Positions 18,485 through 21,344 of a stretch of 64,000 bases of DNA are shown piece by piece; within the stretch, counting starts at the first letter, position 1, and each line of letters opens with the position of its first letter. The notes beneath the pieces are model-generated. The model had not been told where the DNA came from. It searched no databases and saw only the letters and a program-made list of their open reading frames with translations. The translations under genes were made by a program, and so were the position numbers. The stretch lies in assembly GCA_965243025.1 (NCBI GenBank), contig CBDETY010000003.1, positions 1,536,001 through 1,600,000 on the forward strand, in the 5' to 3' direction. Source of the stretch: Candidatus Latescibacterota bacterium (lineage in GTDB: Bacteria > Latescibacterota > UBA2968 > UBA8231).

Positions 18485-19834
18485 CTATGAATCCATCCGA
18501 CACGGCATGAGCAGGGCGGCGCGGGACTCTTGCCCTGCCTCGAAGTGAAGGGGAGGATGCTTGTATATCTCCATTGCCCCGAAATGGATCCGTATCTCTT
18601 CCGCGGCGTCCTTCAGCGCCTCCACGATCGTTCTGAGGAAGTCGTGATTGAAGCCGGCCAGGAATGATCCGCCATTCCCGATATCGGCCGCATCCGCCGG
18701 GCAACTCACCGAATGCTCCCAGTTCGGCCGGTCCTCCTGCGGTTCTCCTGACTCTTCCGCGGTCCGGCTGAACCCCAGGTCCCGTGTCGTTCGCAGCCTC
18801 AGGTTCCCCTCGGCGCTCGACACCCGCATCTCCACCAGCGGCATGTATTTCCATCCGCCGTTCACCGGCTCGTGCCGGTCCCGGAGGAACGGCTCGATCT
18901 CCTTCACGCAGGCCATCAGGTGCTCGCTGCGCACCACCGCCAGGACCGGACGGGGAGTGCCGAAAACCTCCTGGTACTTGACGTAAGGTCCGGGAGTAAG
19001 CCGCAGGAAAACCTCGTCTCCCTCAGGGCTCCGCAGGACGGCGGATTCCCCTTCGAGCACCAGGGTTGCCGCCTCCGCCTCCGGGACCATTTCGGATTGC
19101 AGCGAATCGAGGATCACCGGGGCGGGAAGCGAGGCCAGTCCCTTGCTCGGCCAGTCGAGCATCATGGCCCCGTTGGTCGCGACGATCCTGCCCCCGGCGT
19201 CGAGACAGATCCCTTGCAGAACGGGCCTGCCCGGGTCGTCGCTTCGAAAGCGGGCTGCGTGTCTCAGTCCCGCCAGGTCCTCAGGTCCGAGATCGAATGT
19301 CTGTGCGGTGCTGGATTCGGCCATCGTCGCAATCTCCTCGTGCAGGCGTTTCCGGGCTTTCTGCAGCCGGCTCTTCACCGTGTCCGTGCGCAGCTGCAGC
19401 AGGTCGGCGGTCTGCCGGTAGGAGTAGCCCTTGAGGTAGTGGTGGACGATCACGTCCCGGTGGGGCTCGCTCAGCTTTGCCATCGCCTTGCGCACCAGCC
19501 CTGCGATCTCCTTCTCCCCGGTCTCGGGCGGGGTCTCCGGTTCGAGCTGATCGAGAAGGTTGAGCTGGGTGAGGCGGCGCCGCTGCCACATGCGCGCCTT
19601 GTTGTCGGCGATCGAGCACAACCAGGCGCCGAAGCGCTCCGGGGAACGCAGCGCCGCCAGCTGCTGGTACGCGGCGAGCAAAGCCTCCTGCAGGATGTCT
19701 TCGGCCGCCTCTCTCGACCCCAGCCTGCGGACGAGCCGCCCCAGCAGCCACGGAGTGTGCTCCTCGACCAGCATCTCGAAGGCCTTCGAATCTCCGGCCA
19801 GAGCTCTCTTCACCCGGTCGCCGTTCCGGTCCAT
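18485..19834 (-). CDS. ECF sigma factor fused to DNA polymerase III beta-clamp-like C-terminal module
   Basis: sigma2 (AEDILQEALL, FGAWLCSIADN) and sigma4 (GYSYRQTADLLQLRTDTVKSRLQKAR), followed by DnaN-like motifs RPVLQGI, IVATNG, GPYVKYQEVF, GFNHDFL, LLMPCR. Start may be GTG 19840. Confidence 0.85.
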   Translation of the reverse strand: MDRNGDRVKRALAGDSKAFEMLVEEHTPWLLGRLVRRLGSREAAEDILQEALLAAYQQLAALRSPERFGAWLCSIADNKARMWQRRRLTQLNLLDQLEPETPPETGEKEIAGLVRKAMAKLSEPHRDVIVHHYLKGYSYRQTADLLQLRTDTVKSRLQKARKRLHEEIATMAESSTAQTFDLGPEDLAGLRHAARFRSDDPGRPVLQGICLDAGGRIVATNGAMMLDWPSKGLASLPAPVILDSLQSEMVPEAEAATLVLEGESAVLRSPEGDEVFLRLTPGPYVKYQEVFGTPRPVLAVVRSEHLMACVKEIEPFLRDRHEPVNGGWKYMPLVEMRVSSAEGNLRLRTTRDLGFSRTAEESGEPQEDRPNWEHSVSCPADAADIGNGGSFLAGFNHDFLRTIVEALKDAAEEIRIHFGAMEIYKHPPLHFEAGQESRAALLMPCRMDS

Positions 19835-19844
19835 GATCACCCTG

Positions 19845-19872
19845 TAGTTGCCCGCCGGCGGCAAAGGTATCC
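19845..19872 (-). promoter_or_regulatory. Possible autoregulatory ECF promoter (leaderless or short leader)
   Basis: GGATAC-N16-CAACTA ending 4 nt before the in-frame GTG 19840; no SD visible. ECF-like geometry only. Confidence 0.25.
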
Positions 19873-20040
19873 GAAACGGGGCGCCGGTGGGAAAACCCGG
19901 GCGACCCTCCAGGCGCGTGTCGGAAGGGGGGATCCCGTCGCCGGGACGGGATCGATGTTGCCGCCCTCAAGCTGTTGTCGCCGGGGGGATTTGCGTTTTT
20001 TGACTCGAGCGCCCGGTGTGGACCCCGATCCCTGGCAAAC

Positions 20041-20124
20041 TGACGATCCGGCCTTGTTCCTTGACGGGATACACCGTCGAAGCAACGATTCCCAAGGGCA
20101 GATTGACGATTCTCAATGGCAGTA
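20041..20124 (+). repeat. Degenerate 21-bp tandem array (about 4 units)
   Basis: TGACG/TGACG/CAACG/TGACG at 20041, 20062, 20083, 20104; last two units share a 15/17 core ACGATTC(C/T)CAA(G/T)GGCAG. Confidence 0.55.
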
Positions 20125-21344
20125 TGATGATCGATAGACTTGCGTGTGTGTTGCTCCTGCTGGCCCTGGCCTGCGGGGAGGAGGACAAGGGTACGGGGCC
20201 GGTCGCCGGACCAGGTCCGGACACGGTCCCGGAACCCGCTCCCGGGGCTGCGCTTTTCGCTGCGGAGGTGGCGGCTGTTCGTCAAGGGTGTGAAGACGGC
20301 TGCATTCTCGCGGTTGCAACCGGCGAATCCGACGACTACGGGGCGTGCTTTGTTTCCTGTGTGTGGGAAGGTGAGAAGGCGTTGTGGAAGGCCGGGATGT
20401 TGGAGGTCGCCGCCGAGCTGAACGATCAGGGGATCGAGGTCGGGGGCTCATTTTCAGACCTTTCAGACAGGTACTTCCCCGAGATCATCGGCTCCGGGGA
20501 CACTCCTCGCACCTGGGCTTTGAGGCTGGCCTTGAGGATAGCCGCCATGGCGGGTGATGGGGAGTTGGTGCGCTCGGTGTTGGAACAAGGGGCGGGTTTG
20601 CCGGGCAATACAGAAGTTTTTTTCCTGCCTGGCGGGGTGCCGATGGAGTTTGTGAGGATCGAGGGGGGGACGTTCCTGATGGGCTCACCCTCTTCGGAGG
20701 AGGGTCGGGGGAATCATGAAGGTCCGGTGCATGAGGTGGAGATCAGCACGGGCTTCTGGATGGGCAAGTACGAGGTGACGCAGGGGCAGTGGGCGGCGGT
20801 GATGGGGCTGCGACCGTGGACTGGAAGAAACAACGTGGTTGAGGACCCTCTTTATCCGGCGGTGTATGTTTCCTGGGAAGATGCGCAGGCGTTGATCGAG
20901 ATGTTGAACAGTGCCGCGGGTGAGGCACGGTATCGTCTGCCGAGTGAGGCGGAGTGGGAATACGCCTGCCGTGCGGGCACCGGGTCGCCGTGGTCGTTCG
21001 GGGATGACCGGAGTCGGCTTGTCGATTATGGCTGGTACCATGTCAATACGGTGGATGCAGGTGAGGGGTACGCTCATGCGGTAGGTCTGAAGGGTCCGAA
21101 CCCGTGGGGGTTGCACGATATGCACGGGAACGTCTGGGAGTGGGTGCAGGACTGGTTTGACGGGGGCTATTACGAACGATCGCCCCGGGTGGACCCCCAG
21201 GGGCCTGAAACCGGCACATCCCGCGTCCTCCGGGGCGGCCGCTTCGACGATTCCCCCTGGCTGTTGCGGTCAGCCAATCGCCACAACGTCGCGCCGGGCC
21301 TTCGCGGCGAGGGCCTGGGCCTGCGCCTTCTGCTGGTTCCCTGA
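20124..21344 (+). CDS. Lipoprotein with formylglycine-generating-enzyme (FGE-sulfatase/SUMF1) domain
   Basis: Lipobox LALAC; FLMGS, YEVTQGQW, VSWEDA, RLPSEAEWEYACRAG, PNPWGLHDMHGNVWEW, RVLRGG. Confidence 0.88.
   Translation: MMIDRLACVLLLLALACGEEDKGTGPVAGPGPDTVPEPAPGAALFAAEVAAVRQGCEDGCILAVATGESDDYGACFVSCVWEGEKALWKAGMLEVAAELNDQGIEVGGSFSDLSDRYFPEIIGSGDTPRTWALRLALRIAAMAGDGELVRSVLEQGAGLPGNTEVFFLPGGVPMEFVRIEGGTFLMGSPSSEEGRGNHEGPVHEVEISTGFWMGKYEVTQGQWAAVMGLRPWTGRNNVVEDPLYPAVYVSWEDAQALIEMLNSAAGEARYRLPSEAEWEYACRAGTGSPWSFGDDRSRLVDYGWYHVNTVDAGEGYAHAVGLKGPNPWGLHDMHGNVWEWVQDWFDGGYYERSPRVDPQGPETGTSRVLRGGRFDDSPWLLRSANRHNVAPGLRGEGLGLRLLLVP

What the first reader, a model, noticed from the sequence alone, without database searches (positions are those of the whole stretch)
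19553..19567. Clamp-binding-motif-like QLNLL in the sigma2-sigma4 linker of the same protein
Seen: residues 90-94 read QLNLL, just after sigma2. Known: the beta-clamp binding consensus is QL[S/D]LF and the E. coli UmuC motif is QLNLF. By eye, several pocket residues are retained in the fused module (equivalents of R152, L155, T172, G174, V247, M362, P363, R365), while H175/R176/P242 are changed. Inference: the clamp module may bind its own linker as a built-in anti-sigma and be released by competing clamp-binding ligands. Alternatively the motif docks the sigma on the cellular DnaN. A 5-mer can arise by chance.
Basis: partly seen in the sequence, partly recalled or inferred. Interest (0 to 1): 0.72.

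Follow-up and report, generated by a model that had tools for sequence, protein, structure and literature searches.

The report
Clamp-type peptide motif in sigma linker
A bacterial stress-type sigma factor is fused to two-thirds of a DNA sliding clamp, and its own linker carries the kind of short peptide that such clamps normally grip, so the protein probably holds and regulates itself.

Summary
Window 19553..19567 (minus strand) encodes QLNLL, residues 90-94 of a 449-aa ECF sigma factor, just after the sigma2 domain.

The C-terminal 274 aa are a homologue of DnaN domains II and III. Domain I is missing. Most residues of the clamp's peptide-binding pocket are kept.

In 72 sigma-clamp fusions (sigma parts 29-94% identical to this one), 71 have Gln at this column and 71 have a hydrophobic residue three positions later. 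Gln90 ranks 7th of 449 columns for conservation. None of 79 non-fused ECFs has Gln there.

The strict clamp-binding motif is present in only 19 of 72 (one more has the six-residue form). The family-wide feature is Q-x-x-hydrophobic.

A complex model places residues 88-94 in the canonical pocket: score 0.78, best control 0.02. This may reflect the model's memory of solved clamp-peptide structures. Against it, two full-length AlphaFold2 models keep the motif at the frayed end of a helix at low confidence.

Best reading (about 0.55): the linker motif is the ligand of the fused half-clamp, a new version of the ECF41-style contact between a C-terminal extension and the linker. Autoinhibition and release by competing ligands remain inference.

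The parts
18485..19834 (-). Gene for the 449-aa ECF sigma / half-clamp fusion (ATG start at 19834; stop codon 18485-18487)
   Evidence: ORF list and translation. The 449-aa database form is P0002. The TTG at 19864 lies inside the promoter-like element.
19574..19771 (-). Sigma-70 region 2 domain (residues 22-87)
   Evidence: Pfam PF04542, E 2.7e-13, 50 bits against a cut-off of 24.
19499..19573 (-). Sigma2-sigma4 linker (residues 88-112): L-T-QLNLL followed by a variable acidic, Pro-rich spacer
   Evidence: Lies between the two Pfam domains. pLDDT is below 50 for 96-107 and for 94-108 in the two AF2 models. Sequence and length vary among relatives after residue 97.
19553..19567 (-). QLNLL (residues 90-94), a clamp-binding-motif-like pentapeptide
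   Evidence: Fits Q-phi-x-[L/M]-[F/L] as defined in review PMC11139829 (passages). Q is kept in 71 of 72 and a hydrophobic residue at +3 in 71 of 72 fusions.
19343..19498 (-). Sigma-70 region 4 domain (residues 113-164)
   Evidence: Pfam PF08281, E 5.4e-13, 48.8 bits against a cut-off of 25.7.
18488..19309 (-). C-terminal module (residues 176-449), a homologue of DnaN domains II and III
   Evidence: hhalign against the genome's own DnaN: probability 95.1%, E 3.1e-8, residues 197-449 aligned to DnaN 155-384. Module profile against PDB: 52 beta-clamp sequences at E<=1, best 3.6e-13. Foldseek: the top listed hits are all beta clamps, best E 3.4e-11.
19157..19180 (-). ATNGAMML (residues 219-226), equivalent to E. 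coli beta 171-178 (ATDGHRLA), the pocket strand
   Evidence: Alignment to 3pwe_A. G222 is kept in 61 of 72 and T220 in 54 of 72. Residues 220 and 222-225 touch the peptide in the complex model.
18488..18514 (-). LLMPCRMDS (residues 441-449), equivalent to E. coli beta V360-L366 (VVMPMRL), the C-terminal pocket wall
   Evidence: Alignment to 3pwe_A. M443 is kept in 64 of 72, P444 in 68 of 72 and R446 in 55 of 72. Residues 441 and 443-449 touch the peptide in the model.
19846..19872 (-). ECF-type promoter-like element GGATAC-N15-GCAACT, 12 bases upstream of the ATG
   Evidence: GGATAC / GCA[AT]C boxes with 15-16 bp spacing lie upstream of the orthologous gene in most of the 39 relatives examined. 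The strict form occurs once in the 6.8-Mb genome.

Best explanation
The protein is an ECF sigma factor (sigma2, linker, sigma4) fused directly to a two-domain derivative of the beta sliding clamp (DnaN domains II and III, no domain I). The derivative has kept the clamp's hydrophobic peptide-binding cleft. The first residues of the sigma2-sigma4 linker (L88-T89-Q90-L91-N92-L93-L94) are a clamp-binding-motif-type peptide and are the ligand of that cleft. Gln90 and Leu91 sit in the subsite-II equivalent (N396, M443-R446). Leu93 and Leu94 sit in the subsite-I equivalent (T220, G222-M225, V285/V290, L441, M443). Binding may occur within one chain or between chains of an oligomer. In ECF holoenzymes the connector must thread through RNA polymerase, so a 30-kDa domain gripping its first residues should keep the sigma factor off the core, or in an inactive shape, until the grip is released. 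This parallels the inhibitory contact between C-terminal extension and linker described for ECF41. Shown here: the homology, the conservation of pocket and motif, and the modelled pose. Inferred: that binding happens in the full-length protein, that it is inhibitory, and what releases it.
For: (1) The module is DnaN II-III. hhalign against own DnaN gives probability 95.1%, E 3.1e-8. The module profile hits beta clamps in PDB down to E 3.6e-13, aligned to E. coli 127-267 and 313-366. Foldseek's top listed hits are all beta clamps.
(2) Pocket residues as listed in review PMC11139829 (passages) are kept across 72 fusions whose modules are only 20-83% (median 32%) identical to this one: R152 equivalent 61/72, T172 54/72, G174 61/72, R176 55/72, L177 54/72, N320 67/72, Y323 as Y or F 62/72, M362 64/72, P363 68/72, R365 55/72.
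(3) Motif: Gln at the aligned column in 71 of 72 and a hydrophobic residue at +3 in 71 of 72. Gln90 ranks 7th of 449 columns and is the only strongly conserved linker residue.
(4) Specificity: 0 of 79 non-fused ECFs have Gln at that column. The nearest shorter relatives are broken copies of the family; identity then drops to <=34%, and the 9 such ECFs I read (of 11 listed) lack the motif.
(5) Eleven of 72 have Pro within the motif (QPPLF, QPLLL, QPALL, QETLPL, QLHLPF). This argues for an extended peptide rather than a helix.
(6) Complex model of module 176-449 with peptide 80-112: score 0.78 in the median run, best of 3 controls 0.02. That mark was reached by 58 of 80 solved complexes and 2 of 110 mismatched pairs. 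Runs agree in at least 56% of contacts and partner pLDDT is at least 51. Lowest-error pairs are G222-L93, M443-L91, C445-L91, M443-L93, C445-Q90 and N396-Q90.
(7) There is no gene downstream on the same strand and no neighbour conserved across the family, as is usual for ECFs regulated by their own extension (PMC7826278 passage).
(8) Precedent: ECF41 extensions inhibit by contacting a linker motif (PMC8999054 passage). The ECF connector follows the sigma-70 path through RNAP (PMC6372665 abstract).
Against: Two full-length AlphaFold2 models (pLDDT 72.8 / pTM 0.46, and 82.4 / 0.71) both keep residues 90-94 as the end of helix 65-96. The 91-100 block has mean pLDDT 45 and 47, so the motif is not confidently docked within the chain.
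The strict motif Q-phi-x-[L/M]-[F/L/I] is present in only 19 of 72, and the six-residue form in 1 of 72. Whole branches of the same phylum read QLRLE, QIRFE or QLRWE, with Glu or Gly where a clamp ligand needs its second anchor.
The complex score may come from the model's memory of the many solved clamp-peptide structures. It was obtained with my own alignment and with a peptide excised from its sigma2 context.
The contrast between fused and non-fused ECFs is one family against distant outgroups (<=36% identity), so Gln90 could serve another family-specific role.
No experiment exists, and inhibition versus activation is untested.
Confidence: 0.55

Rival explanations
1. The linker motif docks the sigma factor onto the cell's own DnaN ring, so that transcription from its promoters is coupled to loaded clamps. 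Phage T4 gp55/gp33 with gp45 and phage Mu late transcription work this way. The fused module's pocket would then bind something else.
For: QLNLL fits the published motif (PMC11139829 passages). The genome has one canonical dnaN whose pocket strand and tail resemble the module's. Clamp-dependent transcription exists in phages (PMC7892883 and PMC12867686, search listing and abstract starts only).
Against: Only 19 of 72 family members keep a motif that a canonical clamp should accept, while cellular DnaN pockets are highly conserved. This reading leaves the conserved pocket of the fused module without a ligand.
Confidence: 0.12
2. The pocket of the fused module binds clamp-binding motifs of other cellular proteins (polymerases, repair proteins or a dedicated partner). 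Gln90 and the following hydrophobic residues serve a different, family-specific role in the sigma factor, for example contacts with RNA polymerase or with sigma4.
For: The pocket is conserved. The residue at the H175 position equals that of the same genome's DnaN in 6 of 10 genomes compared (S/S, H/H, A/A), which could mean shared ligands. The AF2 full-length models leave the motif undocked.
Against: It needs two separate explanations for two family-specific conserved features that fit each other in the model. No conserved partner gene lies nearby. The 6 of 10 agreement covers about three lineages and may be slow divergence.
Confidence: 0.15
3. The match is incidental. Residues 90-97 are just the amphipathic end of the last sigma2 helix (Q90, L93/L94, L97 on one face), as hydrophobic residues early in the linker are common in ECFs.
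For: AF2 draws helix 65-96. Many non-fused ECFs have hydrophobic residues at the same columns, for example LELVDIE and SELVPMD. The i, i+3/4, i+7 spacing of Q90, L93/L94 and L97 is kept in relatives.
Against: Gln is kept in 71 of 72 fusions and in 0 of 79 non-fused ECFs at this column. Eleven of 72 have Pro inside the motif, which breaks a helix. pLDDT is low here. Chance expectation in the linker window is 0.17%.
Confidence: 0.13

Closest known systems
ECF sigma factors with regulatory C-terminal extensions, above all group ECF41 (SigJ type, SnoaL-like extension)
   Same: Sigma2-linker-sigma4 core with a fused C-terminal domain of more than 50 aa and no cognate anti-sigma gene. In ECF41 the extension contacts a motif in the sigma2-sigma4 linker and inhibits core binding (PMC8999054 passage; PMC7826278 passages).
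   Different: The extension here is a DnaN domain II-III derivative, not SnoaL, TPR or Cys-rich. The linker motif is of the clamp-binding type. 'Clamp' and 'polymerase III' occur nowhere in the main text of the ECF classification paper or the ECF evolution paper. Their supplements could not be seen.
Bacterial beta sliding clamp (DnaN) with clamp-binding motifs of its partners
   Same: Homologous domains II and III. The pocket residues of subsites I and II are largely kept. The ligand has Gln at position 1 and Leu at positions 2, 4 and 5. The modelled pose has Gln in the subsite-II equivalent and Leu93/Leu94 in the subsite-I equivalent.
   Different: Domain I is absent, so the head-to-tail dimeric ring cannot form as in DnaN. 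The module scores far below the dnaN family cut-off. The ligand is in the same polypeptide. In most relatives only positions 1 and 4 of the motif are kept.
Sliding-clamp-dependent transcription in phages (T4 gp45 with gp55 and gp33; phage Mu late genes)
   Same: A sigma-type specificity factor and a clamp pocket are functionally linked (PMC7892883, PMC12867686; search listing and abstract starts only).
   Different: In the phages a complete, DNA-loaded ring acts in trans as an activator. Here a two-domain fragment is fused to the sigma factor and probably binds the sigma factor's own linker.

Membership tests
ECF (group IV) sigma-70 family | Sigma-70 region 2 and region 4 domains present | tested here: met
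   PF04542 scores 50 bits (cut-off 24) and PF08281 scores 48.8 bits (cut-off 25.7). TIGR02937 scores 85.2 bits (cut-off 42.9).
ECF (group IV) sigma-70 family | No region 1.1 or region 3; a short connector between regions 2 and 4 | tested here: met
   About 25 residues lie between the two Pfam domains. No region 3 or 1.1 family appears among the hits at E<=1.
Beta sliding clamp DnaN | Three homologous domains (I, II, III) in one chain of about 370 aa | tested here: not met
   The module is 274 aa. It aligns only to own DnaN 155-384 and to E. coli beta 127-267 plus 313-366.
Beta sliding clamp DnaN | Scores above the curated family thresholds (TIGR00663; Pfam DNA_pol3_beta_2/_3) | tested here: not met
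   The window's module has no Pfam hit at E<=10. Modules of relatives score 21-28 bits against TIGR00663, whose cut-off is 137.65. Three of 10 distant fusions have sub-threshold PF02767 or PF02768 hits.
Beta sliding clamp DnaN | Peptide-binding pocket between domains II and III (subsites I and II) | tested here: met
   Of 17 mapped pocket positions, 9 are identical to E. coli in this protein and 12 in the family consensus. Conservation across the 72 fusions is given.
Beta sliding clamp DnaN | Forms a closed ring around DNA | not testable with these tools
   No oligomer was modelled. Absence of domain I rules out the DnaN-type dimer ring. A different assembly cannot be excluded.
Clamp-binding motif (CBM) | Sequence Q-phi-x-[L/M]-[F/L] or Q-phi-x-[L/M]-x-[F/L] (PMC11139829) | tested here: met
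   QLNLL in this protein. Across the family it is met in only 19 of 72 (five-residue form, with Ile and Ala also allowed) plus 1 of 72 (six-residue form).
Clamp-binding motif (CBM) | Lies in an accessible, extended or disordered stretch | tested here: inconclusive
   It lies just beyond the Pfam sigma2 boundary. AF2 draws it as the low-confidence end of a helix. Eleven of 72 relatives have Pro in the motif.
Clamp-binding motif (CBM) | Binds the clamp pocket | tested here: inconclusive
   Only modelled: score 0.78 against best control 0.02, a mark reached by 58 of 80 solved and 2 of 110 mismatched pairs. The score may reflect memory of solved complexes. There is no binding measurement.
ECF with regulatory C-terminal extension (ECF41-like mechanism) | C-terminal extension longer than 50 aa and no cognate anti-sigma gene | tested here: met
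   The extension is 274 aa. The downstream gene is a convergent ABC ATPase. No neighbour is conserved across the family.
ECF with regulatory C-terminal extension (ECF41-like mechanism) | SnoaL-like fold of the extension (defines ECF41 itself) | tested here: not met
   The extension is clamp-like, so this is not a member of ECF41. Only the mechanism is analogous.

The most novel reading that the evidence does not exclude
The fused half-clamp is a decoy clamp pocket that makes the sigma factor a sensor of replication and repair status. The linker motif occupies the pocket and holds the sigma factor inactive. Release would come either from free clamp-binding proteins (polymerases, repair factors) competing for the pocket, or from free cellular DnaN competing for the motif. 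Transcription would then respond to the balance between clamps and their clients. The agreement of the module's H175-position residue with the same genome's DnaN in 6 of 10 genomes would fit a pocket tuned to the host's own clamp ligands.
Probability: 0.15. Interest if true: 0.9.

Novelty: new variant of a known kind. Interest (0 to 1): 0.72.

Why it matters
ECF sigma factors regulated by their own C-terminal extension are known, but how the extensions work is understood for only a few types. This family's extension derives from a replication protein, and its ligand-binding chemistry is among the best characterised in bacteria. That gives a residue-level, directly testable hypothesis for regulation: Q90, L93 and L94 on one side, and M443, P444, R446, G222 and N396 on the other. 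If confirmed, it would be an example of a sliding-clamp peptide pocket reused outside DNA replication as an intramolecular switch. It would also raise the possibility that transcription is wired to the pool of clamp-binding proteins. The family is widespread: the module was found in 69 of 168 genomes scanned in this phylum (one related record is titled Candidatus Latescibacterota), and there are many more divergent metagenomic representatives.

Tried and rejected
Single-sequence searches of the module found nothing (Pfam at E<=10; PDB by phmmer at E<=10). Homology appeared only with profiles.

Conserved neighbours: tblastn of four window neighbours against 20 distant loci found only generic ABC ATPase matches in 2 loci. 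Clustering of flanking ORFs gave only within-lineage synteny. There is no partner or anti-sigma candidate.

Regulon: the strict promoter pattern hits only the gene's own upstream region, and a looser pattern gives 12 unconvincing sites. I derived no regulon.

Covariation leads were not counted as evidence because each rests on one or two lineages. These are L94 with W228 versus E/G94 with R228, and Q-P motifs with a T-M-P-M-Q tail.

The H175-position agreement with host DnaN (6 of 10) is kept only as a lead.

ESM Atlas: the best score was 0.83, to short DnaN-like clusters. That is below the 0.9 lead threshold.

Earlier findings of this scan: two look-ups returned nothing.

Literature: searches for ECF plus sliding clamp, DnaN or clamp-like domain found no description of this fusion, and neither did word finds in PMC7826278 and PMC7671368. 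Supplementary tables were closed and might list such a group as an unnamed extension.

The scan of genome contigs was dominated by generic ECFs because one search pattern was generic. Only 1 of 80 loci (L002) was a true fusion.

Rows left out: P0012 (linker reads INATQSV..., probably a local frameshift) and the truncated or frameshifted short forms P0049-P0060 are not in the 72-sequence counts. About a dozen 260-290-aa module-only proteins were also left out because I could not tell stand-alone genes from fragments.
Full report
THE OBSERVATION

The reverse complement of window 19553..19567 is CAG CTC AAC CTT CTC, which translates to QLNLL. The ORF runs 18485..19864 on the minus strand and is 459 aa from a TTG. 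The form held in the protein database (P0002) is 449 aa and starts at the ATG at 19834. The TTG lies inside a conserved promoter-like element.

Pfam finds Sigma70_r2 at residues 22-87 and Sigma70_r4_2 at 113-164 in that numbering. NCBIfam's general ECF model TIGR02937 is passed, at 85.2 bits against a cut-off of 42.9. The motif is therefore the first stretch of the sigma2-sigma4 linker.

In 100,000 shuffles of the protein, QLxL[LF] appears somewhere in 2.9% and inside a 28-residue linker window in 0.17%.

WHAT THE C-TERMINAL HALF IS

Residues 176-449 give no Pfam hit at E<=10 and no PDB hit with a single sequence. Profiles do find relatives.
- The family alignment against the genome's own DnaN (385 aa, found with TIGR00663) gives hhalign probability 95.1%, E 3.1e-8. 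Residues 197-449 align to DnaN 155-384.
- A 28-sequence profile of the module hits 52 distinct beta-clamp sequences in the PDB at E<=1, the best at 3.6e-13. It aligns in two stretches, to E. coli beta 127-267 and 313-366.
- Foldseek with the AlphaFold2 model returns beta clamps as its top listed hits. The best is 3q4l_A at E 3.4e-11, with about 290 aligned columns.

The module is a homologue of domains II and III. Domain I is absent, and the module is not a DnaN by the curated thresholds.

THE POCKET

Review PMC11139829 (passages read) defines the pocket as follows.
- Subsite I: R152, L155, T172, G174, H175, R176, L177, P242, R246, V247, V360, M362.
- Subsite II: H175, N320, Y323, V344, M362, P363, M364, R365.

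Using the printed alignment to 3pwe_A, the equivalents in this protein are:
- R203, L206, T220, G222, A223, M224, M225
- V285, E289, V290
- N396, F399
- L441, M443, P444, C445, R446

Across 72 fusions the same positions are kept as follows: R 61/72, T 54/72, G 61/72, R(176) 55/72, L(177) 54/72, N 67/72, Y or F 62/72, M(362) 64/72, P 68/72, R(365) 55/72. The more distant members even carry His at the 175 position (19/72) and Pro at the 242 position (22/72), as E. coli does. Module identity to this protein is only 20-83%, median 32%. The peptide cleft is therefore under selection.

HOW WIDE THE FAMILY IS

- A word-indexed search found 47 relatives, nearly all about 450 aa with both sigma Pfam domains.
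- A scan of 168 genomes of the same phylum found the module in 69, always in open frames of about 370-510 aa. One of these contigs carries a record title naming Candidatus Latescibacterota.
- A profile search of 1.84 billion representatives gave 47 hits at E<=1e-30 and 625 at E<=1e-10. Beyond roughly 1e-15 the hits are ordinary DnaN-length proteins.
- Ten of ten distant 400-500-aa hits that I scanned have Sigma70_r2 and r4_2 above cut-off. Three have sub-threshold DNA_pol3_beta_2 or _3 hits.

THE MOTIF ACROSS THE FAMILY

In the close alignment, Q90, L91 and L94 are at least 90% conserved. In other lineages of the same phylum the stretch reads QLRLE, QLRLG, QIRFE, QVRFE or QQRWL.

I aligned 72 fusions: 38 from alignment A3 plus 34 representatives. 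Sigma parts are 29-94% identical to this one, median 42%. The counts are:
- Gln at the aligned column: 71 of 72. The exception, P0100, has AQEQETL and may be shifted by one residue.
- A hydrophobic residue at +3: 71 of 72.
- A hydrophobic residue at +4: 34 of 72.
- The published five-residue motif (with Ile and Ala also allowed): 19 of 72.
- The six-residue form: 1 of 72.
- A relaxed form: 36 of 72.
- Pro within +1 to +5: 11 of 72 (QPPLF, QPLLL, QPALL, QPVLL, QETLPL, QLHLPF and others).

Gln90 ranks 7th of 449 columns for conservation and is the only strongly conserved linker column. No alternative canonical motif appears at another conserved position in members that lack it at position 90.

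CONTROLS FOR SPECIFICITY

In 79 non-fused ECFs from the genome collection, none has Gln at this column, although many have hydrophobic residues there. This sample was retrieved by a generic sigma2 pattern, and its members are at most 36% identical to the query.

A search for shorter relatives of the sigma part found only truncated or frameshifted copies of the family (54-85% identity), which keep the motif. Identity then drops to <=34%, and the 9 such ECFs I read (of 11 listed) lack it.

The motif is therefore confined to the clamp-fused family. However, there are no intermediate relatives, so this is one family against outgroups.

STRUCTURE PREDICTIONS

The first full-length AlphaFold2 model used alignment A1 and gave mean pLDDT 72.8 and pTM 0.46. 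The second used the wider A3 and gave 82.4 and 0.71. In both, helix 65-96 runs through the motif. The 91-100 block has mean pLDDT 45 and 47, and residues 96-107 (first model) or 94-108 (second model) are below 50. Neither model docks the motif with confidence. This counts against self-binding, or at least does not support it.

The one complex job paired the module (176-449) with the peptide 80-112, both with A3 rows.
- The verdict was that the model supports binding but does not show it.
- Scores were 0.78, 0.78 and 0.79, and the best of three controls was 0.02.
- The mark was reached by 58 of 80 solved complexes and 2 of 110 mismatched pairs. These counts hold only roughly because my own alignment was used.
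- Runs agree in at least 56% of contacts, and partner pLDDT is at least 51.
- Confident interface residues in the module are 220, 222-225, 285-286, 289-290, 331, 333, 354-357, 396, 424, 426, 428, 441 and 443-449. In the peptide they are 84-94 and 96-97.
- The lowest-error pairs are G222-L93, M443-L91, C445-L91, M443-L93, C445-Q90, P444-L91 and N396-Q90.

This is the canonical pose described in the review: Gln and position 2 in subsite II, and positions 4 and 5 in subsite I. Dozens of clamp-peptide complexes are solved, so the pass may be memory. It shows that pocket and peptide look like a clamp-ligand pair. It does not show that they bind in the intact protein.

CONTEXT

The gene stands alone. 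Downstream lies a convergent ABC ATPase, and upstream a divergent FGE-sulfatase-domain protein. Neither is conserved next to the gene in distant relatives, and no neighbour is shared family-wide. This fits the rule that ECFs with C-terminal extensions usually lack anti-sigma genes (PMC7826278 passage).

MECHANISM

For ECF41, the C-terminal extension contacts a linker motif and prevents core binding, while part of the extension is also needed for activity (PMC8999054 passage). In ECF holoenzymes the sigma2-sigma4 connector follows the same path through RNA polymerase as in primary sigma factors (PMC6372665 abstract).

From this I infer that a module gripping residues 88-94 would block the connector's entry. 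The sigma factor would then be inactive until released. This step, the direction of the effect, and the releasing signal are all inference. Whether the contact is within one chain or between chains is open.

RIVALS

- The motif docks on cellular DnaN, as phage T4 and Mu systems use clamps for transcription (listings only).
- The pocket binds other proteins' motifs, and Gln90 has another role.
- The stretch is an ordinary amphipathic helix end.

Their weights and the evidence for each are given in the Rival explanations section.

NOVELTY

Searches for ECF with sliding clamp, DnaN or clamp-like domain found nothing describing this fusion. The words 'clamp' and 'polymerase III' are absent from the main texts of the ECF reclassification and ECF evolution papers. 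Supplements were closed, so an unnamed extension group there cannot be excluded.

I rate this a new variant of a known kind. The known kind is an ECF sigma factor with a regulatory C-terminal extension that contacts the linker. What is new is a domain derived from the replication clamp paired with a clamp-type peptide ligand.

Noticed in passing
window 19846..19872 (-); upstream regions of L083-L121: A conserved ECF-type promoter-like element, GGATAC-N15/16-GCA[AT]C(T), sits just upstream of the sigma gene in most of the 39 relatives examined. One lineage has a variant, GACAC-N16-CGTC. This suggests autoregulation. The strict form occurs only once in the 6.8-Mb genome, so no regulon could be read off.
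   Followed up: partly
window 19157..19180 (-) versus own dnaN (L001:1489-2643:-) and nine other genome pairs (L122-L125, L127-L131): The residue at the position of E. coli H175 in the fused module equals that of the same genome's DnaN in 6 of 10 genomes (S/S twice, H/H once, A/A three times). Mismatches are A/S twice, M/S and S/T. This could mean shared ligands, gene conversion or merely slow divergence. It covers about three lineages only.
   Followed up: partly
proteins P0075, P0086, P0089, P0101, P0102, P0104, P0106, P0144, P0151, P0169, P0124, P0128: These are proteins of 260-290 aa that consist of the two-domain clamp-like module alone, with a short N-terminal leader. They may be stand-alone half-clamps or products of broken gene calls. 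P0109 clearly starts inside sigma4. Their genomic context could not be fetched.
   Followed up: no
window 19426..19447 (-), residues 130-136 (VHHYLKG; the same-length stretch before Y139), and relatives: Sigma4 carries a family-specific block, V-H-H-Y-L-K-G-Y-S-Y. Y133 and Y139 are invariant in 72 of 72 and H132 is kept in 68 of 72. These are as conserved as the core sigma residues, and their role is unknown.
   Followed up: no
window 18872..18874 (-), residue H321 in the module (RDRHEP) and relatives: An R-H-P / R-H-E motif (H321 invariant in the 38-sequence alignment), together with W372, is conserved in the domain III-like half. The HMM alignments to solved clamps did not cover this part, so these may be features the module gained after leaving DnaN.
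   Followed up: no
window 20016..21344 (+): The divergently transcribed neighbour is a 442-aa protein with an FGE-sulfatase domain (PF03781, E 9.4e-48) and, by eye, a lipoprotein-like N-terminus. It is not conserved next to the sigma gene in distant relatives.
   Followed up: partly
protein P0012 (relative), linker region: One close relative reads INATQSVGSARLGGT where the others read LTQLNLLDQL..., and returns to the family sequence afterwards. This looks like a local frameshift in that assembly rather than true loss of the motif.
   Followed up: no
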